Assembly: GCA_012455605.1 (NCBI GenBank)
Contig: GCA_012455605.1_3618.1
Direction: 5' to 3' (one strand)
From: a phage
Length of the DNA stretch: 64,000 nucleotides
A program made the translations under genes and the position numbers. The notes below the pieces were generated by a model. That model was not told the origin of the DNA, did not search any database, and saw nothing but the letters and a program-made list of their open reading frames with translations. The stretch's first letter is position 1. Each line of letters starts with the position of its first letter. This document shows, in pieces, positions 15,959 through 28,559 of the stretch.

Positions 15959-16204
15959 ATGAGCAAAGGGTGGACATTTGTAGACGGCGTTAAAAACATG
16001 CCTCTTGGAAAGTATATCGTAGCCATGGCAGATGAGAATGGCAATGTGGATTTCGGAGCTTGCGAGGTTGTTCTTGCAGGATCTGGTAACTATGTGGACA
16101 AAACCGGGATAATTAACGGTCAGTTCTACTTTGATCACAACCCTGTTGTAGCGTATATGGCTATGCCAGAGTTCAAGTTCCCAAAGGAGGGTGCAGATGT
16201 TTAA
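15959..16204 (+). CDS. hypothetical protein
   Basis: 81 aa, AGGAGA ribosome-binding site. Confidence 0.45.
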   Translation: MSKGWTFVDGVKNMPLGKYIVAMADENGNVDFGACEVVLAGSGNYVDKTGIINGQFYFDHNPVVAYMAMPEFKFPKEGADV

Positions 16205-16394
16205 GCTTAAATCTGCATGGAACATCGCTGTGGGGGACGAGATCCGTATCCCAGGTGGAAAGACCATTATGAAGATATCTCGTATCGAGTACGAAGGTGA
16301 TCGTGTATTTCATATCTTTGCAGAGGATGGTCGAGAAATTTATATACAGGCAGGCTCTCACATCTATATTCGTAAGAAAGGGGACGACAAATGA
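16191..16394 (+). CDS. hypothetical protein
   Basis: 67 aa, AGGAGG ribosome-binding site. Confidence 0.4.
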   Translation: MQMFKLKSAWNIAVGDEIRIPGGKTIMKISRIEYEGDRVFHIFAEDGREIYIQAGSHIYIRKKGDDK

Positions 16395-16720
16395 CAGAGA
16401 TCATCATTTCAACTGCAGGGTATGTGTTCCTGACAATCATTGCACTGACCATTCTGGTGGTGGTATATGGAATTGTTATTCTCCCTATTCTTGAGACAAT
16501 TAGTTTGTGTCGGTGTTGGAGAAAGGCTTACGGTCCACAGCCGTGGAAGGACTGGCCCCACCTGGTGCACATAGCGTTCTCTTATGCTTATGATCACGCC
16601 AGCAGTGCATGCATAACCGGGTATCACGCCCACAACTGGAGCTGGGAAGGGTTGAGGAAATGGAATGTTACAAAGACCATACCTCTGCGCATGTACAAAC
16701 CTAAAAACAAAGACAGCTAA
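16391..16720 (+). CDS. putative membrane protein
   Basis: Hydrophobic N-terminal segment VFLTIIALTILVVVYGIVILPIL. Confidence 0.45.
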   Translation: MTEIIISTAGYVFLTIIALTILVVVYGIVILPILETISLCRCWRKAYGPQPWKDWPHLVHIAFSYAYDHASSACITGYHAHNWSWEGLRKWNVTKTIPLRMYKPKNKDS

Positions 16721-16739
16721 TACTTGAAAATTCCTGGCA

Positions 16740-17300
16740 TATCAAGTATAAGGGGGATTTCTAAAATGGATTTCCTCCTTTTGATATTTCACCGGGCCGG
16801 ATATTTTAAAATTCTTAGAAAATCAGAAAATGGATCGAAAACTAAAATGGATTTTTCAGAGTAGGCGCGACAAGCTGAATAACTCATCCTATCGTTTGCA
16901 CCATATTCCAGGCCACCATTATAGATTTCCCACACATGCTAACCTCTCTCTACTAGAACTTCCTCCACTTACCCTTGACCTTCTATGGTAACAATCTAAC
17001 CGCTATCTTGAAGTTGCGGTGCAGCTTTCCAGGTACTCGATCTACTTTTCATTTCAGGGCTTGGATTTTCTGAAAATTTTTCTCGATAAATTTCTCAGTA
17101 CTCGATCTGTTTTTCGTTTTCTGAATCGGATTTTCTGGAAATCGTTCCGGCTCTCAACCTGAAATTTTGGGGACGAAATCGATTTTTCGTTTTCAGAAAT
17201 GGATTTTTAAAATTTCTATATGGGAATATTTTAGTGGATACTATTTTATAGTAAATTGTTACGGAGGGTAATTAGCGTGCTAATTAAATTTATTAAATGC
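16740..17300. repeat. non-coding direct-repeat region (AAATGGATTT and TACTCGATCT-T-rich units)
   Basis: At least 4 copies of AAATGGAT(T/C), 2-3 of (G)TACTCGATCT(A/G)TTTT, 2 of GGATTTTCTG(G)AAA; no credible ORF. Confidence 0.6.
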
Positions 17301-17355
17301 GAGGAGTTCTCATTTAGAATTTTGAATGATAATCATTCTCGTTTGCAGAATAATG

Positions 17356-17377
17356 GGCAGGCCCGGTGATTGTCTCC
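17356..17377. other. conserved element GGCAGGCCCGGTGATTGTCTCC (copy 1; variant at 17498-17512)
   Basis: 22 nt recurs exactly in inverted orientation at 26837-26858. Confidence 0.5.
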
Positions 17378-17735
17378 CGGCCCCTGCTGCCCCGGCTTGT
17401 TATTATAGTATCACACAGGACAAAGAAAGCAAGGATTTTTTGCATAAACTTTTAAATGATAATGATAACCGTTCTCATTTTATGCAGCGCCCATCCCCGG
17501 TGGTTGTCTCCCCCGTCACCGGTGCCTGTCGTCCTTTCGATAGGTATATTGTGCCACCTGGCGGGGCCGCTGTCAACACTTTTCAAAAAATTTTTCTAAC
17601 CTGATGCGCTAACCGCTGCAACCTGGCGGGGCCAGCCTGGCAGGACCTAACTGACCAGGTAGGAGAGAATGAAGGCTTGTAAACCTGGTGGGCCTATGCT
17701 ATAGGAGAAGTAACAATTGAAGAGGAGGTACAAAA

Positions 17736-17912
17736 ATGGAAGGTAATATGATCCCCCTGGAAAATGTAGCTATTAATGACGCTGAGGCTATCGCCCTGGT
17801 TGAAAAGGCTATGGCGGGAGCGTTGGAATATAAAGAAGAGTACGAAAAAATGATGGTTAACCTGGCAGGGGTGGCGGCTGGAGAATTCCGCCCAAAAAAT
17901 AATTTTAACTAA
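17736..17912 (+). CDS. small hypothetical protein (58 aa)
   Basis: ORF below the track cutoff; GAGGAGG 7 nt upstream of the ATG. Confidence 0.4.
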   Translation: MEGNMIPLENVAINDAEAIALVEKAMAGALEYKEEYEKMMVNLAGVAAGEFRPKNNFN

Positions 17913-17915
17913 TGG

Positions 17916-17944
17916 TTGACAGCTCGGACAGTTCTTGTTATTCT
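17916..17944 (+). promoter_or_regulatory. sigma70-like promoter (TTGACA-N17-TATTCT)
   Basis: Consensus -35, acceptable -10. Confidence 0.4.
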
Positions 17945-17997
17945 TATCCTCACAAGGTGAACAACACCACACTAATTAACAGAGAGGATAAAAAATC

Positions 17998-18195
17998 ATG
18001 AACGCCTACGGAATCAAAGTACGTCGCAGCACTCGCCAGGTGGTCACCGATCAAATGGTTTGCCAGGTGGATGTAACCATCAACAACGGGCAAGGCCTTT
18101 ATAAATTTCGTCGCGGTCATAGCTATACCCTGCAACAGCTTAATCGTTGCGCCCTGACAAAAGGCCAGATCAACCACTGGTTTAATAAAAAATAA
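17998..18195 (+). CDS. hypothetical protein
   Basis: 65 aa basic protein. Confidence 0.45.
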   Translation: MNAYGIKVRRSTRQVVTDQMVCQVDVTINNGQGLYKFRRGHSYTLQQLNRCALTKGQINHWFNKK

Positions 18196-18198
18196 ATA

Positions 18199-18227
18199 TT
18201 GACATATAGTCTGACACAAAATATACT
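18199..18227 (+). promoter_or_regulatory. sigma70-like promoter (TTGACA-N17-TATACT)
   Basis: Consensus hexamers. Confidence 0.55.
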
Positions 18228-18259
18228 GAAATCACAAAAGACACTAAGAGGATAAAATC

Positions 18260-18658
18260 ATGAAAACCACAACCTTTAATTTTGATAATGCCGACTTCTC
18301 TTTTTCTGATGTCAAGAACTGCCGCCGTGATCGTGGATTTTACAAGGCTTATAATCTGGTTGGCCTGGACGATGATAATAATTTGCACGAAGTAGCGGAG
18401 ATCCGGTACTATGCCGCCGCCAGCGGTAACACTAACTATTGCGTTTTTTGGATACACGACAACAAGAACAATAAGTACGGTTATACTGGCGGCAAGGCGA
18501 GCGGTCACGGTTATGATAAAGCTAACGCAGCACTTGAGAGCGCATTAAATGCTATGGGGATCACTGCCAACGGCTGGATCTATGAAGAAGAGTTTTTGTC
18601 GGCACTTGCTGACCATCTAGGCTATAAAAAGCACATTGTAACATGCGCCCACGAATAA
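18260..18658 (+). CDS. hypothetical protein
   Basis: 132 aa. Confidence 0.5.
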   Translation: MKTTTFNFDNADFSFSDVKNCRRDRGFYKAYNLVGLDDDNNLHEVAEIRYYAAASGNTNYCVFWIHDNKNNKYGYTGGKASGHGYDKANAALESALNAMGITANGWIYEEEFLSALADHLGYKKHIVTCAHE

Positions 18659-18665
18659 AAAATCA

Positions 18666-18693
18666 TTGACACGCTGCAAAATTTAAGTAAACT
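18666..18693 (+). promoter_or_regulatory. sigma70-like promoter (TTGACA-N16-TAAACT)
   Basis: Consensus -35; TAAACT -10 as in the 45 bp repeat family. Confidence 0.45.
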
Positions 18694-18741
18694 AGGCACA
18701 AAAGGCGGGAATGTTTCCCGCCAACACGAAGGAAAAAGATC

Positions 18742-19146
18742 ATGAATAAGAACGTACGCCGCATCATGAACGAACTGGCAAACGATGAAAAAATTATTGA
18801 CATGCATTTAGTCAACATTTGCCGCCGTTGTGTAACATATAACAACCGCGCCGCAAAAGCGCGTGAGATGAACGCAAAAGGCACCTTAAAGCCATTCCAG
18901 GTGGTGGTAAAGGCCATTAAAGATGTAACTAATACGGCAAACCAGGTACAGGGGAACACCAACGAGAGTACCAATATTGATCCGGCTTACATCATGAAAC
19001 GGATCCGGACCTGCAAGAACAAAGAGCAAGTGTATAATGTCATAGACTGGTTGGATTCTATGGGCGATGTGGTTTACAATAGGTTTTCTGCAGCTATCGA
19101 GATCCAGCTTGACAGGTTGGACGGTAAAGTACTGAAAACTTACTAA
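18742..19146 (+). CDS. hypothetical protein
   Basis: 134 aa. Confidence 0.5.
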   Translation: MNKNVRRIMNELANDEKIIDMHLVNICRRCVTYNNRAAKAREMNAKGTLKPFQVVVKAIKDVTNTANQVQGNTNESTNIDPAYIMKRIRTCKNKEQVYNVIDWLDSMGDVVYNRFSAAIEIQLDRLDGKVLKTY

Positions 19147-19147
19147 G

Positions 19148-19193
19148 TTTATTTTTAGATGGCCTTGACTCCAGGGCCATCAATAAAGTAAAC
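19148..19193 (+). repeat. 45 bp intergenic repeat, copy 1 (T-tract, GATGGCC hairpin around TTGACT, TAAACT)
   Basis: Near-identical copies at 19769 and 23509, structural variant at 20104. Confidence 0.6.
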
Positions 19194-19426
19194 TAATCTC
19201 AACTAAGCGAAAAAGGGGGGCTTTAAGATGAGCACTACACGCCAATACACAAAGGTAACTATTATCGTTTGCGTTGTCGGTTACATCCTGGCGCAAATGT
19301 TAATGAGTAGCGCTAACAGTTTTGCAAAATTTTTCTTAAATTTTTAATTGACAAACTAACTTAGATCGATATACTTAAACACGTAAACGGGAAAACTTCC
19401 CAGAGCACACAAAAGGAGAAAACACC

Positions 19427-19768
19427 ATGACTACTATGACCGCCGCAGAAAAAGCTATGCAGATCGCCGCGCTGAAAAAACAGATCGCAGACCTTGAGAA
19501 TAAGATCGATAACTTTGAAATCGACGAGGACAAGTACGACGAAAACTATGATGAATGGTTAGACGAGATCTACGGCGAAATCATGATCGGAAACATTTCT
19601 TTTCTTCCGTCGCGTATCCTCAAGGAGCTAGATCCTATCGCTTACCGCTGCGGATTTAGCGACTACATCGACAGCCTGGATATTGAGGACGATGAAGAAT
19701 ACCAGGAATTACAGACAGAGCTCGAAGAAGTGAAAGAAGAGCTTGCAGAACTGGAAGAAAACGAGTAA
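19427..19768 (+). CDS. highly acidic small protein
   Basis: 113 aa, very rich in D/E (DIEDDEEYQELQTELEEVKEELAELEENE). Confidence 0.5.
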   Translation: MTTMTAAEKAMQIAALKKQIADLENKIDNFEIDEDKYDENYDEWLDEIYGEIMIGNISFLPSRILKELDPIAYRCGFSDYIDSLDIEDDEEYQELQTELEEVKEELAELEENE

Positions 19769-19815
19769 ATTTATTTTTAGATGGCCTTGACTTCAGGGCC
19801 ATCAATAAAGTAAAC
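19769..19815 (+). repeat. 45 bp intergenic repeat, copy 2
   Basis: ATTTATTTTTAGATGGCCTTGACTTCAGGGCCATCAATAAAGTAAAC. Confidence 0.6.
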
Positions 19816-19857
19816 TTTAGACTGTTAACACTTAACCAATACAGAGGAGTTAAAACC

Positions 19858-20103
19858 ATGGCCGCACTAATTACCAAATATTATGCCCCTACCAACACCA
19901 AAAGCGCCCGTATCATGGTAAAAGGCTTCGGACGTAAAAAGGTTTACACCTGGGATTATGCCTTAGACACGGAAGACAACTACACCAACGCGATGACCGA
20001 TTTTATTAATGATCTGAACACGCGGATCTTAACAAATTATAAAATTACCGACATTGCTTATATAGGTGAAGGCGGGATCTGTTTTGTAGGCATTGTGAAA
20101 TAG
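19858..20103 (+). CDS. hypothetical protein
   Basis: 81 aa. Confidence 0.45.
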   Translation: MAALITKYYAPTNTKSARIMVKGFGRKKVYTWDYALDTEDNYTNAMTDFINDLNTRILTNYKITDIAYIGEGGICFVGIVK

Positions 20104-20150
20104 TTATTTTTTCGGTGGTCCTGGCTGCAGGGCCATCTATAAAGATAATT
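20104..20150 (+). repeat. 45 bp intergenic repeat, divergent copy 3 (compensated hairpin GGTCCTG/CAGGGCC)
   Basis: Same T-tract/hairpin/ATAAAG layout with a different but still pairing stem. Confidence 0.5.
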
Positions 20151-20177
20151 TATTAACACAATGAAAGGAGAAAGTAC

Positions 20178-20531
20178 ATGATCAGCGGGGCAAGTTTTAT
20201 TATTGGCGCTATTGCTACGGCTTTAATTGTAAACAAGATCCAATCTAAAAACGAAAAAGAGAGCAACGCGCTCACAGAATACCCATTTTGGGTATTCAAC
20301 GACAATGAAGACTACATTATCAAGTACAAGAATGAGAAGGGCGACCAGGTAACACCGCGACCGATCCCAGCTTACAAGATGCAAGAAACACTATACCGCC
20401 TAAAGGCTGGAGGCGCAAAAATCGTAGACTTTTGGGGATATGATTGCAAGGATCAGGAGGTTATAAAACGGCGTATCCGGGCGATTCAGGCAAATATTGA
20501 AGTTAGCAAGGGGGGAATATATGAAGATTAA
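20178..20531 (+). CDS. hypothetical protein with N-terminal hydrophobic segment
   Basis: 117 aa; N-terminus ISGASFIIGAIATALIV. Confidence 0.45.
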   Translation: MISGASFIIGAIATALIVNKIQSKNEKESNALTEYPFWVFNDNEDYIIKYKNEKGDQVTPRPIPAYKMQETLYRLKAGGAKIVDFWGYDCKDQEVIKRRIRAIQANIEVSKGGIYED

Positions 20532-20718
20532 TTTTGAGAAGATTGTAAAGCGATCTCATGATTCCGAAGAGTTGCCGGAACGCCGCCAGCGCAACAATAA
20601 ATTGAATAAGCCAAAAAGATTTGGGAAGATCTGGCGGAATCATTATGATCGTAAATTGCCGGGCCTACTTTTGGAACGTGAACGACAGGCGGAACGATAC
20701 CGCCACAAAGGCAAATAA
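20521..20718 (+). CDS. small basic protein
   Basis: Start moved to the ATG at 20521 with AAGGGGGG upstream; Arg/Lys-rich. Confidence 0.4.
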   Translation: MKINFEKIVKRSHDSEELPERRQRNNKLNKPKRFGKIWRNHYDRKLPGLLLERERQAERYRHKGK

Positions 20719-20726
20719 CAACCAAC

Positions 20727-20755
20727 GCCCCGCCATTGTGCGGGGCTTTTTATTT
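20727..20755 (+). terminator. rho-independent terminator (GCCCCGC-CATTGT-GCGGGGC then TTTTTATTT)
   Basis: Perfect 7 bp GC stem followed by a T-tract. Confidence 0.7.
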
Positions 20756-20899
20756 CTATCCTACGAATAGCGCCCCTGGTTGGCCCTGTAAGCGCCAAAA
20801 AGGCCCCACCTATGCAATCGCCCCCCTTTAACCTGAAAACATCGCTTAGGGCCGTTTTATGGCGTTAAAAATATCATTGACAGTGATTTTATTTAAAGC

Positions 20900-20927
20900 T
20901 TGACATCTTAAACAGGTTAGCTATACT
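20900..20927 (+). promoter_or_regulatory. sigma70-like promoter (TTGACA-N16-TATACT)
   Basis: Consensus hexamers; a second TTGACA lies 25 bp upstream. Confidence 0.5.
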
Positions 20928-20959
20928 AACCACATCAAAGAGAGAAAGGAGTAAACGCC

Positions 20960-21220
20960 ATGCGTAAATTAAAAAATTTTGATAAAGTTGATGTTGTCCT
21001 GAATAATTTTTACTACTGCAACAACAAGGCCATTTGGTGGCGTGATAGTTCCACCGATAAAGTCAAGGCGCGCTTTCTCCAGGGGCACTGGCAAGGCCGC
21101 CCAGTGATTAAAATCATGGGGCAATTGGTAGCGTTTAAAAATTGCCGCCGTGTTGATGACGTTGAGGAGATTTTAAACATTTTGCGCCACAATAATTTAA
21201 AAAATAGTGTTGACAAGTAA
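20960..21220 (+). CDS. hypothetical protein
   Basis: 86 aa. Confidence 0.45.
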   Translation: MRKLKNFDKVDVVLNNFYYCNNKAIWWRDSSTDKVKARFLQGHWQGRPVIKIMGQLVAFKNCRRVDDVEEILNILRHNNLKNSVDK

Positions 21221-21237
21221 ATCTCAATAAGTATAAT
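21210..21237 (+). promoter_or_regulatory. sigma70-like promoter (TTGACA-N16-TATAAT)
   Basis: Perfect hexamers overlapping the upstream stop codon. Confidence 0.55.
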
Positions 21238-21294
21238 TAAACACACAGGCGGGAAAACTTACCGCCACTAACAAAGAAAACAGGAGAAAATATC

Positions 21295-21918
21295 ATGACC
21301 ACCGTTAACATTACCACAGGTTACAATTTATCTTTCGACGTGCTGACCGACGAACAAAAAGAAAAAGCCATTGAAATGGTACGCGAAAGAGAAGAACACA
21401 GCGGGGATGACTTTTTTGCAGAAAGTGTAATTGAACACTACAAAGAATATATCTTTCCAGAGTACGGCCTTGAAGATACCGAAGTACATTGGTCCGGTTT
21501 TTGGTGCCAGGGTGACGGCGCGTCAATCAGTGCTGAAAACGTGGATTTAGAAAAATTTTTGCGTAAAGTAAAGGCCCTGACCAAGTTCCGATCAATTCGT
21601 CACTTGTTCGGCACAATGCACGATGGCGAGTTATCAGCCAGTGTTGAACGCGACAAGTACAGCCATTACAGCCATGAAAACACTGTAAGCGGGTACATTG
21701 ATACCACTTGGCTAGATCTGACCGCCAAACAAGAAAACAAAGTGGAAGACCTGGAAGAACTGATCACCGAGACGGTACGGGAGCTATCCCGCAAGGTTTA
21801 CGTAGACCTGGAGGAGGCCTATCTAGAACAGTTCACCGCAGAAAACCTGATCGGCCTTATCGAGGCCAATGATTGGCGGTTTGATGTCGATGAATATGGT
21901 GAGATGACTTTTTCATAA
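21295..21918 (+). CDS. hypothetical protein
   Basis: 207 aa acidic protein. Confidence 0.5.
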   Translation: MTTVNITTGYNLSFDVLTDEQKEKAIEMVREREEHSGDDFFAESVIEHYKEYIFPEYGLEDTEVHWSGFWCQGDGASISAENVDLEKFLRKVKALTKFRSIRHLFGTMHDGELSASVERDKYSHYSHENTVSGYIDTTWLDLTAKQENKVEDLEELITETVRELSRKVYVDLEEAYLEQFTAENLIGLIEANDWRFDVDEYGEMTFS

Positions 21919-21926
21919 ATAAAGTG

Positions 21927-21954
21927 TTGCAATAACCTAAAAACCTGCTATATT
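21927..21954 (+). promoter_or_regulatory. sigma70-like promoter (TTGCAA-N16-TATATT)
   Basis: Near-consensus hexamers. Confidence 0.4.
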
Positions 21955-22008
21955 AAAACTCAAGGGGGCAAGACGTTTGCCCCCACACAAAACAAAGAGG
22001 AAAACATC

Positions 22009-22389
22009 ATGAAAAACACTACTAAAGCTATTGACACCGTTATGTTTAACCTGGTTACATTCCGTGAAGATATGAAAGATCTTCCACGTGAAACAGTGTG
22101 CGACCATATCGAAAACTATCGCAAACTAATCAAAGAGTTGCCTTTAAAACGTGACCAGTATGCGGCTAACGCTATGCTTAACGCCATGATCAAAAAGATG
22201 ATTCAGTGTGATTTAACTCTGGCCTATGATTATGCAGGTGGTCGTTTTGCAGTATACAATCAGCCCGTGCCTGGTATGAGCACCACCGAAGAATTGCACG
22301 CGTTAAATCTGAAACAAGATGTATGGGATAACATGCCCCGCGTGGTGGTGTGGGCAGAAAGCGGAAAGATTTACGGCGATAATTTTTAA
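22009..22389 (+). CDS. hypothetical protein
   Basis: 126 aa. Confidence 0.5.
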   Translation: MKNTTKAIDTVMFNLVTFREDMKDLPRETVCDHIENYRKLIKELPLKRDQYAANAMLNAMIKKMIQCDLTLAYDYAGGRFAVYNQPVPGMSTTEELHALNLKQDVWDNMPRVVVWAESGKIYGDNF

Positions 22390-22398
22390 TCAGGCAAC

Positions 22399-22426
22399 AG
22401 GCGGCATATTTGCCGCCTTATTGTTA
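22399..22426 (+). terminator. rho-independent terminator (AGGCGGCA-TATT-TGCCGCCT then TATTGTT)
   Basis: 8 bp stem; its position argues that the downstream gene starts at 22454. Confidence 0.5.
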
Positions 22427-22453
22427 AACAGAACTGCAAAAGAGGTACATAGA

Positions 22454-22825
22454 ATGGAATTTATTATTTTGGCTGTAGTAGTTGCCTTGTTCAACGCCTG
22501 GATCGCTGGCAAGATAGGTAGATCCGCTTTTCTATGGTTTGTTATATCTATTTTCCTGGGAGTGGTTGCAACTATTGTATTGGTTATCCTTGCAATTGTT
22601 GACAAGGGGAATAATAGAAAGGGTAAAGTGTTTTCCGACCTGTATGACGCACAAACGTTTGTCAACGCCTATTATAGTGATCTTCCAGTCTCCCTACGCT
22701 GCAGCCTGGCACAACAGGTTTTTGATGAGGCTAAAACCAGAGACCAAGCCCATGAGATATGTTTAACTGAGGCGGATCGCCTATTTGAGAGGAATAGAAA
22801 ATATGTGGACCAGCCGTTTAAATAA
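22454..22825 (+). CDS. putative membrane protein
   Basis: Start moved to MEFIIL; two hydrophobic segments. Confidence 0.45.
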   Translation: MEFIILAVVVALFNAWIAGKIGRSAFLWFVISIFLGVVATIVLVILAIVDKGNNRKGKVFSDLYDAQTFVNAYYSDLPVSLRCSLAQQVFDEAKTRDQAHEICLTEADRLFERNRKYVDQPFK

Positions 22826-22935
22826 CGCCACGTTAATTAATCCCTTTAGTGAAGATTTGAAGCCAGCCGCCTGGCGTGACGGATTCAATAACGAACGCTT
22901 TATTTTCAGGCCTGATCTTGAGGAATTTTATAACA

Positions 22936-23061
22936 ATGGATCGAACAACAGCGGAGATAATTTTTCTTGTGGTGTGCGTGGTGATAGGACTCCTGGGGGC
23001 CATTGTAAACCACGTAACTGCTAACAGGAGGGAAGGGGGAGACGATGACAACCAAGGATAA
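22936..23061 (+). CDS. small putative membrane protein
   Basis: MDRTTAEIIFLVVCVVIGLLGAIV; start choice uncertain and it conflicts with the overlapping ORF 22785-23024. Confidence 0.3.
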   Translation: MDRTTAEIIFLVVCVVIGLLGAIVNHVTANRREGGDDDNQG

Positions 23062-23168
23062 GCCCCGCACCGATAAGGCGCGCCGTGCTATGGTATGGCT
23101 TGAGATCATCGCCCTTGAAATATTGTTAGGCGTAGGGATGTATTTTATCGCTGTAAGTAACTGATAAC

Positions 23169-23212
23169 GGCCCCCGATCATGGGGCCTATCTTTAAAAAA
23201 AAAAAAATTTTT
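23169..23212 (+). terminator. GC hairpin (GGCCCC-GATCAT-GGGGCC) followed by an A13 run then T5
   Basis: Stem-loop plus a 13 nt homopolymeric A tract. Confidence 0.4.
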
Positions 23213-23223
23213 CTTCCGGGGTG

Positions 23224-23251
23224 TTGCAATCCGGTCCGGAATGTGGATAAT
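23224..23251 (+). promoter_or_regulatory. sigma70-like promoter (TTGCAA-N16/17-GATAAT)
   Basis: Near-consensus hexamers. Confidence 0.4.
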
Positions 23252-23306
23252 AACAATCAACGGGGAAACATCCCCACCAACACAAAAACCAGAAAGGAGA
23301 AACAAA

Positions 23307-23507
23307 ATGAGCAACAATATCCGCGTTATTAACTTCAAAAAAGAAGAAAAAATTGCCGTGCTGATTGACGGTCAAGAAATCTTCAAGGGCGACTATGAAG
23401 ATCATCAAACGGCGATTAGTATCACTCGCGTGATTGGTTATCATAATTTCTACCCCCAAGGCGCTGAAGCAGCAGTTAAACGAATCAAAGAGATTGTAGG
23501 CCTGTAA
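23307..23507 (+). CDS. hypothetical protein
   Basis: Start moved to MSNNIRV with AAGGAGA upstream. Confidence 0.45.
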   Translation: MSNNIRVINFKKEEKIAVLIDGQEIFKGDYEDHQTAISITRVIGYHNFYPQGAEAAVKRIKEIVGL

Positions 23508-23508
23508 A

Positions 23509-23553
23509 ATTTATTTTTAGATGGCCTTGACTTCAGGGCCATCGATAAAGTAA
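23509..23553 (+). repeat. 45 bp intergenic repeat, copy 4
   Basis: ATTTATTTTTAGATGGCCTTGACTTCAGGGCCATCGATAAAGTAAAT. Confidence 0.6.
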
Positions 23554-23600
23554 ATTTAAACCCTGTTAAAATACCACGCAGTTAACAAGGAGTGATAGAC

Positions 23601-23900
23601 ATGTTTATCCAGGCTAATAATCTTTATTTCTTTGATGGTCAGATCGTAGATGGTGTGGAAGTGGAGATCACCGGGTGCCCTGGCGGTCAGGCTATGACTT
23701 TTCGGAATAATGCCTTTGATGATTCTCATATAGTTATGAGAATGGAAGTTACGAAGCTGGACGACAAGAAAACACTCATTGACTATTCCGTGAAAGATCA
23801 TCCAGACTACCACATGATCTATGGTGATTTGTGCATTGTTGACCGTGACAAGGTGAACGGCATTGTGATCGCTATTGTGAACGATGTTTTCTCAAACTAA
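23601..23900 (+). CDS. hypothetical protein
   Basis: Start moved to MFIQANN with AAGGAG upstream. Confidence 0.45.
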   Translation: MFIQANNLYFFDGQIVDGVEVEITGCPGGQAMTFRNNAFDDSHIVMRMEVTKLDDKKTLIDYSVKDHPDYHMIYGDLCIVDRDKVNGIVIAIVNDVFSN

Positions 23901-23917
23901 TTTCAACAGGTCATTTT

Positions 23918-24268
23918 ATGAAAGTCAAACTATATTACCTTAATGAGCTTAACCCCCTTGCCCAGGTCCGCGCCCTGGCTAATACCTTGATTTGTGAGAA
24001 ATCTGTATATTGTGTTGAGCTTAACGCCATGCGTGAACGTCTCAAAGGTGGTTACTTTGACATCCATGCTGCAATCAACGGCCTGAATATGGAATTTATC
24101 CGCTTACGTAACAGCAGCCGGAATCTGGCAAGAATGGAACAAGATCCGGCCCACCTTCGTAAGCTGGTTATTGAAAATCATCTGATGTTCAATGCCGAGG
24201 GTGATTATTACCATTTTCAACGAAAACGTTGGTACCGTGGCGGCAATACAGGCAAGAATGCAAAATAA
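23918..24268 (+). CDS. hypothetical protein
   Basis: 116 aa. Confidence 0.45.
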   Translation: MKVKLYYLNELNPLAQVRALANTLICEKSVYCVELNAMRERLKGGYFDIHAAINGLNMEFIRLRNSSRNLARMEQDPAHLRKLVIENHLMFNAEGDYYHFQRKRWYRGGNTGKNAK

Positions 24269-24304
24269 GGCCCCTAGCAGGTCCTGCAGCGATATAATCA
24301 CATA

Positions 24305-24337
24305 AAGGCTATGCGGTTGCATGGCCTTTATTATTTT
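24305..24337 (+). terminator. rho-independent terminator (AAGGCTATGC-GGTT-GCATGGCCTT then TATTATTTT)
   Basis: Stem-loop followed by a T-rich tract. Confidence 0.5.
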
Positions 24338-24384
24338 AGCGTTACAGCGGCCCCAAGGCGCTTAAAAATTTTTTAAAGAAGTAC

Positions 24385-24413
24385 TTGCATCAAGCCCTAC
24401 AATATGGATAATA
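24385..24413 (+). promoter_or_regulatory. sigma70-like promoter (TTGCAT-N17-GATAAT)
   Basis: Near-consensus hexamers. Confidence 0.4.
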
Positions 24414-24469
24414 GGACGTGTCAGGGGGGGAGGCCCCAATCATTAACCGGATAGATAGGAGTTAAAACC

Positions 24470-24754
24470 ATGGCTATTGTTACCGCTGGCGATGTAGTAG
24501 AAATGGAAGCAAAATACTTAAAAGCGGGTATGCATATCCTACGCAACGATCTTGAACTAGTCCTGACAATGGTTGACTATAACCCAGGGCAAGATTATCC
24601 AAGCATCGACTACTTTTTTGAGTATGTTGATGAAGAGTTGAAAGAGGATGAGGCCTATTGCGGTGAGTTCTGCAACTTCTTTTGCCCTGATGAGGTTGTA
24701 AAAGTTATCTATCAACCTGGCGTACCTTTCCCGCTGCACGCTATCAATAAATAA
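24470..24754 (+). CDS. hypothetical protein
   Basis: 94 aa acidic protein. Confidence 0.45.
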   Translation: MAIVTAGDVVEMEAKYLKAGMHILRNDLELVLTMVDYNPGQDYPSIDYFFEYVDEELKEDEAYCGEFCNFFCPDEVVKVIYQPGVPFPLHAINK

Positions 24755-24809
24755 ACCTGGCGGGGCCGAAAAGGCCCCCAATTATGAAAATAAAGAGAGG
24801 CAAATCATC

Positions 24810-25043
24810 ATGATGGAACAAATTAAACGCGCCGAGGCTATTAATGGCAACGTGATCTATTTTGTCAGCAAAAACGAAAAAGGCGTACCATATGCGGCAG
24901 TAATAGTACAACCTGACGGCGATTATTGGTTTACTGTGTACGGCGCTTATTCTTTTGGGCGTCCAGTGCATGATAAAATTTTGAAAGTAGCGAACCCTAC
25001 CGGGAAGAATATCACAGCAGAAAAATTTTTTGAAAATAGTTGA
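24810..25043 (+). CDS. hypothetical protein
   Basis: 77 aa. Confidence 0.45.
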   Translation: MMEQIKRAEAINGNVIYFVSKNEKGVPYAAVIVQPDGDYWFTVYGAYSFGRPVHDKILKVANPTGKNITAEKFFENS

Positions 25044-25067
25044 CATGACCATATAAGACTGTAATAT
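25040..25067 (+). promoter_or_regulatory. sigma70-like promoter (TTGACA-N16-TAATAT)
   Basis: Consensus -35. Confidence 0.45.
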
Positions 25068-25118
25068 ATAAATCAAAGGGGGCAACGAACCCCACCAACT
25101 ACAAAGAGGATAAAAATC

Positions 25119-25298
25119 ATGGCTATTATTGCAAAGACTGAGATCGTAGGCTTAGATTCTATTCTCCTCGCATATGAGGAAGCTATAGAAATGTATGTGG
25201 TTTCCTATGGTGAGTATATCCGTGAATATAAATCTATTGATCTGGCTTTTGAATGTTATATCCGCCAGGTTAATAAAGCGTACGATGATTATCGTTAA
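25119..25298 (+). CDS. small hypothetical protein (59 aa)
   Basis: ORF below the track cutoff; AAGAGGA upstream; fills the gap between two promoters. Confidence 0.4.
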   Translation: MAIIAKTEIVGLDSILLAYEEAIEMYVVSYGEYIREYKSIDLAFECYIRQVNKAYDDYR

Positions 25299-25304
25299 AA
25301 TAGT

Positions 25305-25333
25305 TTGACAACAGCCATCTTACAAAGCATAAT
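25305..25333 (+). promoter_or_regulatory. sigma70-like promoter (TTGACA-N17-CATAAT)
   Basis: Consensus -35. Confidence 0.45.
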
Positions 25334-25385
25334 ACATAAGGCGGTGGAATGGTCCGCCACCTGGAACAAAGAAGAGGTAAACACC

Positions 25386-25631
25386 ATGAAAAGCAATAAA
25401 GGTTATAACGGTTACAAAAACAAAACTCATTGGAATGTAAGCCTTTGGATTAATAACGACGAGTCATTGTACCGGTTGGCCCAAGACTTTATTAACGCCA
25501 ATGCTAATCGTAATGATGCGGCGCGGGATATGATGCTTTTTCTGGAGCTAACCGGACAAGATAAGACCCCGGACGGCTTCAAGTACAGCACTACGGCGAT
25601 CCGTGCCGCGATGGTTGGAATGAAACACTAA
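25386..25631 (+). CDS. hypothetical protein
   Basis: Start moved to MKSNKGY with AGAGG upstream. Confidence 0.45.
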   Translation: MKSNKGYNGYKNKTHWNVSLWINNDESLYRLAQDFINANANRNDAARDMMLFLELTGQDKTPDGFKYSTTAIRAAMVGMKH

Positions 25632-26129
25632 AAGCACATAGCCGCCTTACCCTGGGGCCGTGGTAGCGGCCCCATGAATAAGGTTACTAACAGAAGAGAA
25701 TAAACACTATGAAACAGAAATTAATCGATGCAGTGATCTTGGTTATTGCCCTGGGTATTGGCCTGATTGCAACCATGGCTAATGTGATCTTGTCTTCCAA
25801 CGGTATCGGGTGAGGTTGGCAAATGATCACTAACAAAACAGGCAAAACAGAATTTTTACGCAACTTACAGATCGGCAAGCCTGAGATCTGGCATTGCACT
25901 AAAACACCACGTGACGAAATGAAAGACTTCACCGCCACGCTACAACGGGTAAAGATATCTATCACGCAGAAAAAGGCCTTACTAGTGGTGGAAGGGGAGA
26001 TCCCCCAAACCGTTGTTATAGTTGAGCGTACAGCATAGTTTAATTTATACCGATACCCGAAAATTAACCAACAAAGCATAAACAGGCGGTTACCGCCGCA
26101 TTAAACGTAGCAGAAAGAGGCTAGACACA

Positions 26130-26414
26130 ATGAAAAAGATTATCGCAGTGGTTGCCCTGGTTGTTGGACTTAATGCGCCTGCAATGGCTAAAGAGCTGGC
26201 AAAAGAGGTTGATCTAACGGATATCCATGCCGTCAATCAAATCGGGGTTACTTATCGCTTATGCCTTGCCGCTAAAACTTTTAATGACGGCACAACAGAG
26301 TACTACGGATTCGAGGGTATCCGGTGCGGTGAGCTTGCTCGCGACCTTAAGGAAGATCCAGACCTGGAGGATCTGCCCATAACCGTGAACGGGAAAACTT
26401 ACGTGAACCGTTAA
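26130..26414 (+). CDS. putative secreted/periplasmic protein
   Basis: Signal-peptide-like N-terminus MKKIIAVVALVVGLNAPAMA. Confidence 0.5.
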   Translation: MKKIIAVVALVVGLNAPAMAKELAKEVDLTDIHAVNQIGVTYRLCLAAKTFNDGTTEYYGFEGIRCGELARDLKEDPDLEDLPITVNGKTYVNR

Positions 26415-26563
26415 CCATGAGAAAGATAATTATCACCTTGGGGATCGTGGCGGGATCGCTGGCGCTCTTTCCCCTTATGGTTAGATATGTGCTGATCGGT
26501 ATTGTCCTGGCAGTCAGTGATCTATTGGAAACGGTTGGCACCTTGTTTTAAAGAGCGGTAAAA

Positions 26564-26755
26564 ATGAATATCGAACAAGTTAGAAAGGTATTGGCGGTAC
26601 TGCGTTATCATAATCATAGAAAGGTTATAGACGATCCTGATTATGTTGATTCAAGTCTGGAAGAGGATACGCTACAAGCCATAAGTAACATGCAAGAATT
26701 GCTAAAGCGCATGACAGAGAAAAACCGACCGGACTACATAGGCGAAAAAATATAA
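26564..26755 (+). CDS. hypothetical protein
   Basis: 63 aa. Confidence 0.4.
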   Translation: MNIEQVRKVLAVLRYHNHRKVIDDPDYVDSSLEEDTLQAISNMQELLKRMTEKNRPDYIGEKI

Positions 26756-26770
26756 TATTTATAAACTACA

Positions 26771-26800
26771 AAACAGGGCTTGCTATGGTCCTGTTTTTTG
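26771..26800 (+). terminator. rho-independent terminator (AAAACAGGGC...GGTCCTGTTTT then TTTG)
   Basis: Stem-loop followed by a T-tract. Confidence 0.55.
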
Positions 26801-26815
26801 TTATACTTATTACAC

Positions 26816-26858
26816 GGCAGGCACCTGGCGACGGGTGGAGACAATCACCGGGCCTGCC
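26816..26858. other. conserved element, inverted copy (reverse complement of GGCAGGCCCGGTGATTGTCTCC) inside a GGCAGGC/GCCTGCC hairpin
   Basis: Exact 22 nt match to 17356-17377 on the opposite strand. Confidence 0.5.
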
Positions 26859-26965
26859 TGTCATATAAGAACTATAAAAACCGTTGACATCTGCCAGGTG
26901 GTGGGGTAACATTATCTTGAAGGGGCAAAAGTGCCCACACAACAACCAGAAGAGAGGAAAACATC

Positions 26966-27238
26966 ATGTCAAGCTGGATTAATCAAGAAGTCGAATCACG
27001 TTTTAATGCTATTTGGGATCTCATCGAAAAAGAGGACGGAACATCAAGCCCTTACCTCAATAATCTTGAATTCCATTTTGTGGAAGCGATGAACGCAGAA
27101 CATGATCACGAAGGTGGCGCGGATGATTTCGCTAAAGGTTATGGCTTTAACAATGCCAACGAAATGATCGAGGCGGTCGTACTCCAGGCTGAGGAAGATT
27201 ATCAATTAAAAACGCTTGAATTCTGCCGCCATAAGTAA
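26966..27238 (+). CDS. hypothetical protein
   Basis: 90 aa acidic protein, AGAGAGGA upstream. Confidence 0.45.
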   Translation: MSSWINQEVESRFNAIWDLIEKEDGTSSPYLNNLEFHFVEAMNAEHDHEGGADDFAKGYGFNNANEMIEAVVLQAEEDYQLKTLEFCRHK

Positions 27239-27298
27239 TAAGATAATGACACGGGCCAAAAGGCCCGCTAATCAGAACCGCATAAAGAGGTAAACATC

Positions 27299-27562
27299 AT
27301 GAAACGTCTTGATCAGCTCAAACTAGTTCAGTACATGGCCTACAAAGTTCTTGAAGTCCAAAAAGGTAGCAAAAAAGAGGTTTGCGAGAAAGCATATAAG
27401 ATCTTTACCCGTAAAAAAGATGATTGGATGTTACGCCAGACCAAAAAAGCCGATATCCTGGGGTACCTGGAAGAAGAGATCCGACTTGAAGAGCAAGAAG
27501 AGATCCGCCGCAGTGAAGCAGATTATCAGGCAGCTTGGGAAAACTGGATGAGTAACAAATAA
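27299..27562 (+). CDS. hypothetical protein
   Basis: 87 aa charged protein. Confidence 0.45.
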   Translation: MKRLDQLKLVQYMAYKVLEVQKGSKKEVCEKAYKIFTRKKDDWMLRQTKKADILGYLEEEIRLEEQEEIRRSEADYQAAWENWMSNK

Positions 27563-27628
27563 TACAACAAGTTGCACGATCAGGGGGCAATAAAGCCCCT
27601 TGATCACATAAAAATTATGCTATCCTTA

Positions 27629-27657
27629 TTGACAAGGATCGGCAGTTTTGCTATATT
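27629..27657 (+). promoter_or_regulatory. sigma70-like promoter (TTGACA-N17-TATATT)
   Basis: Consensus hexamers. Confidence 0.5.
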
Positions 27658-27706
27658 CTTTTTTGAAGGGAAGTTGTAAAAAAATTAACTAAGAGGTAAA
27701 AACACC

Positions 27707-28126
27707 ATGAACATTAAATCTAATAATCCGGCATATAGCTTTGATAACGCTTTTTGTCACGGCCCGGCGGCGAAAGGATTCGAAATCGATGGTAAACTAA
27801 TTATTGTCAATGTTGACGGGGAAGAGGTTGCAGTATATCCGGTGGCAGACGTAAAAAGCCGTTTACAATGCCGCATTGATGTTACCGCCTATCAGCTTGA
27901 TCCGGTCCGCATAGTTGCCCTGGTCCTGGAAGAAGAAATTAAAGCCATGCACCATAGCAACAGGTTTATTGGTGACGCCCAGGATAATATGAAGGTATGC
28001 CGCCATAAAGTTAATGAAGTGCTTAAAGAATATGGCTTTAAAGATCTGATGATCAAACGTGAGGAAAAATTCCGCTACCGTAACGACCTGGCAAATCGAA
28101 TCTATGAAATATACGAATCATTATAA
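27707..28126 (+). CDS. hypothetical protein
   Basis: 139 aa; last plus-strand gene before the convergent region. Confidence 0.5.
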   Translation: MNIKSNNPAYSFDNAFCHGPAAKGFEIDGKLIIVNVDGEEVAVYPVADVKSRLQCRIDVTAYQLDPVRIVALVLEEEIKAMHHSNRFIGDAQDNMKVCRHKVNEVLKEYGFKDLMIKREEKFRYRNDLANRIYEIYESL

Positions 28127-28144: not shown

Positions 28145-28172
28145 AGGGGCTTTAAAAGGCCCCTTTCTTTTT
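28145..28172 (+). terminator. rho-independent terminator (AGGGGC-TTTAAAAG-GCCCCT then TTCTTTTTG)
   Basis: Stem-loop and T-tract closing the plus-strand block. Confidence 0.6.
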
Positions 28173-28559
28173 GTCTGTATTTCTCCTACCACAAACGGCC
28201 CAGCCTGGCAAGTGGAATAATTGACTAGCCATCAATCCCACACACTGTACAAACATACATGTAAAATAACTATTGCATAATTTTTCATTGTGTGGTAGCA
28301 GGGCCATTTTTACCCGTTTTCTCTCTCAAAATTGCACGTAATGCCGCTATTGCACAAAATTTAACCTGATGCACATCTTCAATATCTTGTCAACAACTAA
28401 AAATCTTTATAAGTCATACACTTACACACTCACAAAAGCGTGTTCTACGTGAAAAATCGAGTATAACTATAGCCGCCAGATCTCAGAATTTACGTACGCT
28501 CACCATTCTATAGTCTGCTAAGTATTTATTCCAACCATAGAATAACGGAATAGTCAATA

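What the first reader, a model, noticed from the sequence alone, without database searches (positions are those of the whole stretch)
17356..26858. Conserved 22 nt element GGCAGGCCCGGTGATTGTCTCC in three copies, one inverted
There is an exact copy at 17356-17377, a variant (CCGGTGGTTGTCTCC) at 17498-17512 inside a second GATAAT...CG-rich unit, and an exact reverse-complement copy at 26837-26858 embedded in a GGCAGGC/GCCTGCC hairpin just downstream of a terminator and upstream of a promoter. Exact 22 nt identity in intergenic DNA suggests a protein-binding site or structured RNA motif.
Basis: seen in the sequence. Interest (0 to 1): 0.5.

Follow-up and report, generated by a model that had tools for sequence, protein, structure and literature searches.

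The report
Promoter-linked stem-loop of rV5-like phages
The repeated 22-base sequence is the conserved core of a small GC-rich stem-loop that sits right after a bacterial-type promoter in rV5-like E. coli phages and their relatives, usually next to binding-site-like sequences for the host iron regulator Fur; it is a real, undescribed regulatory element whose function is still unknown.

Summary
The 22-mer is exact at 17356-17377 (+) and 26837-26858 (-). The window is a Vequintavirus (rV5-like E. coli phage), and all three copies lie in non-coding DNA.

The conserved unit is not the 22-mer. It is a 14-nt core, GAGACAAnCACCGG, inside a ~40-nt GC-rich imperfect stem-loop. In every member examined, a sigma70-type promoter reads into the stem-loop, with its -10 ending 27-31 nt before the core (37 in copy 3). 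This holds across five Vequintavirinae genera, Stephanstirmvirinae and one 168-kb contig with no blastn match.

At copies 1 and 3, and in many relatives, the predicted transcript next meets perfect Fur-box palindromes (AATGAGAATCATTCTCATT).

The likeliest reading is a 5'-terminal leader or non-coding RNA structure of a special class of early transcripts, with a sequence-specific loop. Support for the structure is modest. An outer stem is kept with G.U pairs only on the promoter-sense strand, but covariation is not significant. A DNA-level site remains a serious rival.

There is no Rfam family, no literature mention and no copy in host genomes.

The parts
17355..17392 (-). Copy 1 stem-loop. It read as GGGCAG..CCGG-GAGACAAUCA-CCGG..CUGCCC on the minus strand. 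The 22-mer at 17356-17377 forms its loop plus 3' arm.
17405..17432 (-). Weak sigma70-like promoter upstream of copy 1: TTGCTT-16-TACTAT with a TG extension, and an overlapping TATAAT at 17407-17402. Predicted start is about 17394-17398.
   Evidence: The homologous promoter in L070 is TTGACA-16-TATTAT.
17484..17526 (-). Copy 3 stem-loop region. The core variant GGAGACAACCACCGG is the reverse complement of 17497-17511.
17548..17576 (-). Leftward sigma70 promoter TTGACA-17-CACAAT with a TG extension, reading into copy 3. Predicted start is about 17541.
26816..26858 (+). Copy 2 stem-loop: GGCAGGC..CCUGG..GGAGACAAUCA..CCGGG..GCCUGCC. The 22-mer at 26837-26858 forms its loop plus 3' arm.
   Evidence: (z -3.6).
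26770..26807 (+). Terminator-promoter cassette upstream of copy 2. It is an intrinsic-terminator hairpin at 26770-26797 whose loop carries the -35 TTGCTA. An extended -10, TGTTATACT, ends at 26807. Predicted start is about 26814.
   Evidence: The same design is seen in L249, L258-L262, L092 and L341.
17325..17343 (.). Fur-box-like palindrome AATGATAATCATTCTCGTT next to copy 1. A degenerate second box lies at about 17295-17313.
   Evidence: The consensus is identical to a published Fur box (PMC1790865).
17455..17479 (.). Two overlapping Fur-box-like sites (AATGATAATGATAACCGTTCTCATT) next to copy 3.
17026..17210 (.). Three ~65-nt direct repeats that contain GATC. They lie downstream of the leftward transcripts, are conserved in all genera, and belong to the same non-coding region (16721-17735).
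   Evidence: (families D4, D5, D7).

Best explanation
The 22-mer is the loop plus 3' arm of a ~40-nt GC-rich stem-loop. The stem-loop begins 2-6 nt after the predicted start site of a host-type (sigma70) promoter. Copies 1 and 3 are transcribed leftward and copy 2 rightward.

It is the core of a promoter-coupled, non-coding module inherited by Vequintavirinae, Stephanstirmvirinae and at least one more distant large phage.

The most likely mode of action (inferred, not shown) is at the RNA level. The module would give a special class of early transcripts a 5'-terminal clamp: an outer stem that starts at the 5' end. The clamp presents an invariant, largely unpaired sequence, GAGACAAnCACC, to a trans-acting factor that is still unknown.

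A 5'-terminal stem by itself is known to protect E. coli RNAs from 5'-end-dependent decay. The invariant loop implies an extra, sequence-specific step.

In copies 1 and 3, and in most relatives, the transcript then runs within 10-60 nt into one to four Fur-box palindromes. It goes on toward a set of GATC-containing direct repeats beside the replication genes. Read-through of this non-coding RNA may therefore be gated by the host iron regulator.

What is shown:
- the repeat itself;
- its conservation;
- the promoter coupling;
- the match of the boxes to the Fur-box sequence.

What is inferred:
- that the promoters fire;
- that the RNA folds;
- that Fur binds;
- what the loop recruits.
For: 1. 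The window is ~97% identical to rV5-like phages. The unit is kept at 78-86% identity in otherwise diverged intergenic DNA of Mydo-, Seuna-, Certre-, Henuna- and Phapecoctavirus.

2. A profile finds 51 hits (40 distinct) in the loci held, all of them in such phages. One is L053, a 168-kb contig with no blastn match to 50,697 phage records.

3. Every true unit has a sigma70-like promoter in one orientation. The -10 ends 27-31 nt before the core (37 in copy 3). The mean promoter score is 8.7 in the sense orientation against 6.9 antisense. Scores of 9 or more occur in 25 of 38 sense cases against 3 of 38 antisense cases.

4. The 6-bp outer stem starts at the predicted 5' end. It is paired in 93.9% of cells, against 26-56% when the partner is slid.

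5. The outer stem holds 23 G.U cells on the sense strand, which would be C.A mismatches on the other strand. RNAalifold recovers the stem only on the sense strand, at -3.06 against -1.35 kcal/mol.

6. There are compensatory or register changes in the stems:
- position 3 of the outer stem is A-U, G.U or G-C;
- FBKp34 has AUGGCA/UGCCAU;
- V18 copy 2 has GGCACC/GGUGCC in place of GGCAGGC/GCCUGCC;
- phage isim has CUUGG/CCAGG in place of CCUGG/CCGGG.

7. The region is non-coding. Substitutions by codon position in the annotated ORF are 6/9/6, and there are 1-nt indels.

8. The Fur-like boxes give 6 matches on the two strands, at 4 sites, against 0.06 expected. They are identical to a published Fur consensus. 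They cluster in the same two non-coding regions in three genera.
Against: Covariation is not statistically supported. Only one pair shows changes on both sides, and the shuffle controls reach the observed values.

Replacing the 5' arm by shuffled versions lowers stability only slightly. The mean z is -0.64 over 19 representatives, and 13 of them have z above -1.

Minimum free energies show no strand bias. The consensus folding energy is weak.

A mixed alignment of all copy types gives no consensus structure.

The promoter upstream of copy 1 in this window is weak (7/12). Copy 1 may therefore be internal to the transcript that starts at 17541, not 5'-terminal.

No transcript data exist for any of these phages. 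No partner for the loop was found. Copy 2 in this window has no Fur box.
Confidence: 0.4

Rival explanations
1. The element is a DNA-level site. The core GGTGATTGTCTC / GAGACAATCACC would be a binding site for a phage or host protein, placed at about +20 to +35 of a special promoter class. It could act as a roadblock or switch-off operator, or as part of a transcription-activated replication origin. The flanking complementarity would be incidental to GC-rich DNA.
For: - What is conserved is above all sequence, not pairing. The invariant columns are AA.CAC.
- Stability is hardly better than with shuffled 5' arms, and covariation is not significant.
- The distance to the promoter is near-fixed.
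- Copies 1 and 3 lie in a 1-kb ORF-free region with three GATC-containing direct repeats, just downstream of the methylase, DnaB-like helicase-primase and Pol A genes.
Against: - The core is not a palindrome, and its weak dyad symmetry is not conserved between genera.
- The conserved positions extend over ~35 nt, up to ..TGCCnG..ATTC.
- The outer stem keeps pairing through G.U on one strand only.
- 5' arms of unrelated sequence still pair with the 3' arm in L053, L277, L092 and FBKp34.
- Copy 2 is not in an origin-like context.
Confidence: 0.27
2. The functional strand is the opposite one. At copy 1, a Fur-repressed promoter (TTGAAT-18-CAGAAT, with the Fur box in its spacer) would start a rightward RNA at about GGGCAGG. 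This would be a short iron-regulated RNA, antisense to the leftward transcript. The hairpin would serve as its 5' structure or as a weak terminator.
For: - TTGAAT-N18-CAGAAT is found in several Vequintavirinae genera with the box exactly between the hexamers.
- GAAT next to the hairpin is almost invariant.
- In this window the plus-strand hairpin of copy 1 is followed by a U-rich stretch.
Against: - Position 2 of the putative -10 varies (CAGAAT, CTGAAT, CGGAAT, CAAAAC). TTG of the -35 is lost in Phapecoctavirus, which has GTAAAT or GCAAAT.
- Antisense promoter scores are low, and copy-2-type units lack a comparable antisense promoter.
- In DU_PP_IV and FBKp34 the box is 33-45 nt away from CTGAAT.
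- On this strand the outer stem has C.A mismatches, and RNAalifold does not recover it.
Confidence: 0.13
3. There is no function of its own. The copies would be remnants of duplicated terminator-promoter cassettes, kept alike by gene conversion or by recombination between phages. The exact 22-nt identity would be a recent conversion tract.
For: - The two 3'-arm variants (GCCTGCC and GGGTGCC) occur at both copy 1 and copy 2 in close relatives.
- The isim/Murica group carries a recombination junction inside the core.
- Copy 1 retains traces of the copy-2 cassette (TTGCT..gtcctgt).
Against: - Both copy types already exist in two subfamilies, with the flanks diverged beyond alignment, while the core stays nearly invariant.
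- The core is kept in a contig with no detectable nucleotide similarity elsewhere.
- Conversion cannot explain conservation between genera.
Confidence: 0.06
4. Copies 1 and 3 are part of a real protein-coding gene: the 92-aa ORF at 17326-17604, annotated as a hypothetical protein and placed in phrog_14993.
For: The ORF is annotated in several records and matches phrog_14993 at E = 5e-63.
Against: - There is no excess of third-position substitutions (6/9/6), and relatives carry 1-nt indels.
- The start codon lies inside the Fur-box palindrome, with no ribosome-binding site.
- The homologous DNA in other genera has no such ORF.
- A 1-nt insertion in the core (GAGTACAAAACACC) is tolerated.
Confidence: 0.02

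Closest known systems
5'-terminal stabilising stem-loops of E. coli and phage mRNAs (ompA-type leaders; established knowledge, not tested here)
   Same: The stem is predicted to begin within a few nucleotides of the transcript's 5' end. It sits directly behind a sigma70 promoter and precedes either genes (copy 2) or non-coding RNA (copies 1 and 3).
   Different: Such stabilisers need no particular loop sequence. Here a 12-14-nt loop and 3'-arm sequence is nearly invariant across subfamilies, which implies specific recognition.
Promoter-proximal antitermination RNAs of lambdoid phages (lambda nut boxA/boxB; HK022 put)
   Same: These are cis-acting RNA stem-loops placed just downstream of early promoters, in a genome region crowded with terminators.
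   Different: There is no boxA consensus (CGCUAUUCU matches 6 of 9 and is not conserved). There is no boxB-type pentaloop and no two-stem put architecture. No N-like factor is known, and read-through was not tested.
Fur boxes of Fur-repressed promoters (for the adjoining palindromes)
   Same: The relatives carry a 19-bp 9-1-9 palindrome, AATGAGAATCATTCTCATT. It is identical to the Xanthomonas Fur consensus and about 84% identical to the Shewanella and B. subtilis consensus sequences (PMC1790865). It has the 7-1-7 core TGAnAATnATTnTCA and occurs in arrays of 1-4.
   Different: The boxes lie in the genome of a virulent phage. They are downstream (+45 to +110) of the promoter that reads into them, rather than clearly over a -35/-10.
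ColE1 RNA II/RNA I and the T7 primary origin (promoters reading into an AT-rich origin)
   Same: Tandem promoters at 17576 and 17432 read into an AT-rich stretch with direct repeats, next to T7-like replication genes (DnaB-like helicase-primase and Pol A). A structured 5' RNA domain with a possible antisense partner is present.
   Different: No origin has been mapped in these phages. Copy 2 has the same element without any origin-like context.

Membership tests
Any Rfam family | A covariance-model match at the gathering score or at a low E-value | tested here: not met
   There are no matches in the window at gathering threshold. There are none at E<=1 in six related loci. The only match in 16600-17800 is a chance-level hit (E 0.43) elsewhere in that stretch.
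Intrinsic (Rho-independent) terminator | A GC-rich hairpin immediately followed by a U tract on the transcribed strand | tested here: not met
   The 22-mer hairpins are not in the terminator list. The terminator near copy 2 is the separate hairpin at 26770-26797. Sense-strand tails are CAUUAUUCUGC and UGUCAUAUAAG.
Fur box (adjoining palindromes) | A 19-bp inverted repeat matching AATGAnAATnATTnTCATT, with the 7-1-7 core TGAnAATnATTnTCA | tested here: met
   The box at 17325-17343 matches 18/19, and relatives match 19/19. The published consensus is in PMC1790865.
Fur box (adjoining palindromes) | The operator overlaps the -35/-10 of the repressed promoter | tested here: inconclusive
   TTGAAT-18-CAGAAT spans the box in several genera. 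Its key positions vary, and the arrangement is absent in Phapecoctavirus and in copy-2-type units.
Fur box (adjoining palindromes) | Binding by Fur-Fe2+ | not testable with these tools
   This needs EMSA, footprinting or ChIP.
Lambda nut / HK022 put antitermination RNA | For nut: the boxA consensus (CGCUCUUUA) plus a boxB 5-bp stem with a pentaloop. For put: a two-stem ~70-nt structure. | tested here: not met
   The closest match to boxA is CGCUAUUCU (6/9). It is replaced by CGUCAUUCU, UGUCAUUCA or CAUUAUUCU in other lineages. There is a single composite stem-loop with a 9-19-nt loop.
Lambda nut / HK022 put antitermination RNA | Makes RNA polymerase read through terminators | not testable with these tools
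   This needs in vitro or in vivo read-through assays.
5'-terminal stabilising stem-loop | The stem begins no more than about 4 nt from the RNA 5' end | tested here: inconclusive
   The geometry fits predicted start sites: the stem begins 6-8 nt after the -10. No start site has been measured.
tRNA or tRNA-like gene (as annotated in OY978796) | A cloverleaf detectable by ARAGORN | tested here: not met
   No tRNA is found in the window or in L003.
Host repetitive extragenic elements (REP/BIME/ERIC-type) | Copies present in the host chromosome | tested here: not met
   There is no blastn match in 5,426 E. coli genomes. The 53 pattern hits in 185,579 species genomes are all in unrelated taxa and lack the Fur box, which is chance level.
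Protein-coding sequence (phrog_14993) | Codon-position bias of substitutions and conservation of the reading frame | tested here: not met
   Substitutions by codon position are 6/9/6, and there are 1-nt indels.

The most novel reading that the evidence does not exclude
A virulent-phage regulatory switch in which a promoter-coupled RNA element and arrays of host Fur boxes work together. The hairpin-led non-coding transcripts would read into two Fur-box-studded non-coding regions, one of them beside the replication genes with GATC-containing repeats. The phage would then couple early transcription or initiation of replication to the iron status of the host. The invariant loop would be the handle for an RNA-polymerase-modifying or RNA-binding factor, in the manner of put or nut.
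Probability: 0.12. Interest if true: 0.75.

Novelty: new member of a known kind. Interest (0 to 1): 0.5.

Why it matters
rV5-like and phAPEC8-like phages are widely used as therapeutic and biocontrol phages, yet their early regulation is essentially unstudied. Most early genes are of unknown function, no origin has been mapped and no transcript maps exist.

This element is a concrete, testable handle:
- three defined promoters with a shared leader;
- a 14-nt invariant motif to mutate or to use as bait;
- perfect Fur boxes, which suggest that a strictly lytic phage reads the host's iron regulator.

It also shows that an ORF annotated in many genomes (phrog_14993) is probably spurious.

Tried and rejected
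- **Rfam.** The gathering and E-value scans of the window and of six related loci found nothing.
- **tRNA remnant.** The idea came from the tRNA-Met/Ile features in OY978796. ARAGORN finds none, so those features are misplaced.
- **Host origin.** No E. coli match and only chance hits in bacterial genomes.
- **Short-motif scans of IMG/VR.** Only longer gapped patterns were informative.
- **One alignment of all copy types.** RNAalifold gave no structure, so the copy types had to be analysed separately.
- **Other recognition motifs.** I compared the core by eye against the sigma54 promoter, CRP, IHF, PhoB, LexA, Tus/Ter, hix/gix sites and CRISPR repeat mimics. None fits in spacing or sequence. 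These are my own comparisons from memory, not tool tests.
- **Micro-ORF through the core.** Rejected because of the 1-nt insertion variant and non-synonymous variation.
- **Function of neighbouring genes.** All flanking small ORFs fall in PHROGs of unknown function.
- **Literature.** Searches for the sequences, for Fur boxes in these phages and for transcript maps found nothing relevant.

Full report
**What is in the sequence**

The 22-mer GGCAGGCCCGGTGATTGTCTCC is present exactly at 17356-17377 on the plus strand and at 26837-26858 as a reverse complement. Allowing up to three mismatches there are 2 matches against 0.01 expected. For that pattern there are 3 matches against 0.09 expected.

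The identity between copies 1 and 2 stops at 22 nt (inverted repeat I10). It is therefore not the visible tip of a long recent duplication.

**Where the window comes from**

The window is a Vequintavirus, an rV5-like myovirus of E. coli. Bases 16000-19000 are 97% identical to phage PDX and 96.5% identical to FFH2.

Upstream lie a DNA methylase, a DnaB-like helicase-primase (2974-5052) and a family-A DNA polymerase (5111-7540). From 17736 to 28126 there are small plus-strand genes, and all those tested fall in PHROGs of unknown function. An ORF-free stretch follows at 28160-30900.

Copies 1 and 3 lie in a 1-kb gap between genes (16721-17735). Copy 2 lies in a 210-nt gap (26756-26965).

The 92-aa ORF at 17326-17604 is annotated over copies 1 and 3 in several records and placed in phrog_14993. 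It is very probably spurious:
- its ATG sits inside a palindrome, with no ribosome-binding site;
- substitutions against four relatives fall 6/9/6 over the three codon positions;
- relatives carry 1-nt indels.

**Conservation**

The unit around copy 1 is kept at 78-86% identity in intergenic DNA that is otherwise diverged. This holds for Klebsiella (Mydovirus), Salmonella, Cronobacter and Enterobacter (Seunavirus), Pectobacterium and Cronobacter (Certrevirus), Erwinia (Henunavirus) and Phapecoctavirus phages.

The unit around copy 2 is kept in Phapecoctavirus, Justusliebigvirus, a Klebsiella member of Stephanstirmvirinae and some Certrevirus phages.

A sequence profile of 28 units finds exactly three copies in the window, two in 35 kb of a Phapecoctavirus and one in 35 kb of a Certrevirus. 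Over all 341 loci held it finds 51 hits, 40 of them distinct. These include diverged members:
- L092;
- L277;
- L053, a 168-kb contig whose first 3 kb have no blastn match among 50,697 phage records.

Gapped-pattern scans of IMG/VR, JGI metagenomes and 185,579 bacterial or archaeal species genomes returned true members only from such phage contigs. The 53 genome hits are in unrelated taxa and none has the neighbouring palindrome, which is chance level. E. coli genomes have no match.

**The 22-mer is not the conserved unit**

In phage V18, copy 1 reads GAGACAATCACCGGGCCTGCC and copy 2 reads GAGACAATCACCGGGGGTGCC. Both 3' variants occur at either site in close relatives.

The invariant columns are AA.CAC, within a core GAGACAAnCACCGG. 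The exact 22/22 identity in this genome is a lineage detail.

**Promoter coupling**

This is the most consistent feature. In one orientation, every true unit is preceded by a sigma70-type promoter: -35 TTGnnn, a 16-18-nt spacer and a TAnnnT -10, often with a TG extension. The orientation is the minus strand for copies 1 and 3 and the plus strand for copy 2.

The -10 ends 27-31 nt before the core, or 37 nt in copy 3. The intervening sequence differs completely between lineages.

Promoter scores average 8.7 in this orientation against 6.9 in the other. Scores of 9 or more occur in 25 of 38 cases against 3 of 38.

In the window the promoters are:
- TTGACA-17-CACAAT at 17576-17548, on the minus strand;
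- a weak TTGCTT-16-TACTAT at 17432-17405, on the minus strand;
- TTGCTA-16-TATACT at 26780-26807, on the plus strand.

The third promoter is built into a terminator. The -35 lies in the loop of the hairpin at 26770-26797, and the T run forms the spacer. This compact design recurs upstream of copy-2-type units in five other genera.

**Structure**

On the promoter-sense strand, the transcript would begin 0-6 nt before a stem whose 3' half directly follows the core.

I tested 19 distinct copy-1-type units from genera other than Vequintavirus. Their 6-bp outer stem (AUAGCG or AUGGCG with CGCUAU, CGUCAU or UGUCAU) is paired in 93.9% of cells, against 26-56% when the partner is slid. RNAalifold predicts it without guidance.

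The outer stem contains 23 G.U cells, which would be C.A mismatches on the other strand. On the reverse complement RNAalifold does not recover it, and the consensus energy is -1.35 against -3.06 kcal/mol.

There are changes that keep pairing:
- A-U, G.U or G-C at the third pair;
- AUGGCA/UGCCAU in FBKp34;
- GGCACC/GGUGCC in V18 copy 2, where this window has GGCAGGC/GCCUGCC;
- CUUGG/CCAGG in phage isim, where this window has CCUGG/CCGGG.

The evidence is nevertheless modest:
- covariation does not exceed the shuffle controls;
- replacing the 5' arm by shuffled versions weakens folding only slightly, with a mean z of -0.64 over 19 representatives;
- minimum free energies show no strand preference;
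- a joint alignment of all copy types has no consensus fold.

The safest description is an outer clamp of about 6 bp, plus variable inner pairs, that present a nearly invariant sequence.

**The neighbours**

Copies 1 and 3 are followed, in the sense direction, by AATGATAATCATTCTCGTT (17325-17343) and AATGATAATGATAACCGTTCTCATT (17455-17479). In relatives the box is the perfect 9-1-9 palindrome AATGAGAATCATTCTCATT, in arrays of one to four.

That sequence is letter for letter the Fur-box consensus derived for Xanthomonas. It is about 84% identical to the Shewanella and B. subtilis Fur consensus sequences (PMC1790865).

The window has four such sites against 0.06 matches expected. In three genera they cluster in the same two ORF-free regions. 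Boxes also follow copy-2-type units in DU_PP_IV, L092, L277 and FBKp34. They do not follow copy 2 in this window.

Beyond the boxes lie three ~65-nt direct repeats that contain GATC (17026-17210). These repeats are conserved in all genera examined.

**Interpretation**

I commit to the RNA reading with a confidence of 0.4. On this reading, the element is a promoter-coupled 5' leader structure that marks a small class of early, partly non-coding transcripts. Its stem sits at the 5' end, a position known to protect E. coli RNAs from 5'-end-dependent decay. Its loop is recognised sequence-specifically by an unknown partner. In the copy-1 context the transcript runs into Fur boxes, which could gate read-through toward the repeat region beside the replication genes.

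The rivals are:
- a DNA site at +20 to +35 of these promoters, or an origin component (0.27);
- a Fur-repressed rightward promoter TTGAAT-18-CAGAAT that would make the opposite strand the functional one (0.13);
- conversion-maintained remnants with no function (0.06);
- a coding sequence (0.02).

**Comparison with what is known**

No Rfam family matches. No paper in the library contains the sequences. The rV5 and Certrevirus genome papers list promoters and terminators but not this element. No transcript maps exist for these phages.

The element resembles 5' stabiliser stem-loops and promoter-proximal antitermination RNAs in position. It fails the defining sequence and shape features of nut and put. 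It is not a terminator, a tRNA or a host repeat.

I file it as a new member of a known kind, a phage cis-regulatory leader or non-coding motif, of unknown function.

Noticed in passing
window 17295-17479 and 29521-29655; L248 8647-8723 and 17687-18449; L249 8393-8469 and 19098-20122: Fur-box-like palindromes cluster in the same two ORF-free regions in Vequintavirus, Certrevirus and Phapecoctavirus. This suggests that these virulent phages carry arrays of host Fur operators.
   Followed up: partly
window 17026-17210: Three ~65-nt direct repeats, each with GATC, an internal inverted repeat and an A6T6-like tract. They are conserved in all genera just beyond the Fur boxes and lie next to the helicase-primase and Pol A genes. 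They are candidate origin iterons.
   Followed up: partly
window 19144-19194, 19766-19816, 20100-20150, 23506-23556; also 26770-26807: A repeated 'hairpin with a -35 in its loop, then a -10' cassette (GATGGCCTTGACTCCAGGGCCATC..TAAACT). It is a compact terminator or insulator plus promoter design, used throughout the early region and in distant relatives.
   Followed up: partly
window 17556-17568, 17621-17633, 24755-24767: The exact 13-mer ACCTGGCGGGGCC, which contains a CCWGG site, occurs three times. The copy at 17556-17568 lies in the spacer of the leftward promoter at 17576-17548. Related CCAGGTGG and CCTGGTGG sequences lie in other early promoter spacers, for example 26884-26912.
   Followed up: no
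window 28160-30900: A 2.7-kb stretch with no ORF of 100 aa or more, where plus-strand and minus-strand gene blocks converge. This is the 'non-coding' box of the rV5 paper. It contains Fur-like boxes and many short repeats.
   Followed up: no
window 17326-17604: The 92-aa ORF annotated as a hypothetical protein in many records, and forming phrog_14993, looks spurious. It has no codon-position bias, relatives carry 1-nt indels, and its start lies inside a palindrome.
   Followed up: yes
L003 1511-1664 (OY978796.1): The tRNA-Met and tRNA-Ile features annotated over the homologous element are not tRNAs (ARAGORN finds none). They are probably misplaced coordinates.
   Followed up: yes
records MG065635-MG065690: Seventeen 'Campylobacter phage' records are 93-98% identical to E. 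coli rV5-like phages over these regions. The host assignment looks doubtful.
   Followed up: no
L003 about 1680-1760; L006 about 1670-1750; L008, L009 and L005 at the same place: A conserved GC-rich block of about 85 nt (CTACCGGCGATCCACC...GCCGTGGGGTGGCG) lies to the right of the leftward promoter in Seuna-, Mydo-, Henuna- and Phapecoctavirus. I did not notice it in the window's non-coding region, though I ran no search for it. It has no Rfam hit at E<=1. It may be another structured RNA.
   Followed up: no
L259 203-620 (phage isim; also the Murica group): A ~315-bp insertion carrying an extra gene replaces the terminator-promoter cassette and the 5' arm of copy 2. The junction lies inside the conserved core, which suggests that the core serves as a recombination point for module exchange.
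   Followed up: partly
L008 about 1620-1650, L006, L003 and L249 (plus strand CTTTACAAATCTTTACAAA); L260-L262 upstream of TTGACA: A tandem TTTGTAAAGA motif lies directly upstream of the -35 of the leftward promoter in several genera. It occurs in the opposite orientation upstream of the next rightward promoter. It could be an UP element or an activator site. I did not see it near the copies in the window.
   Followed up: no
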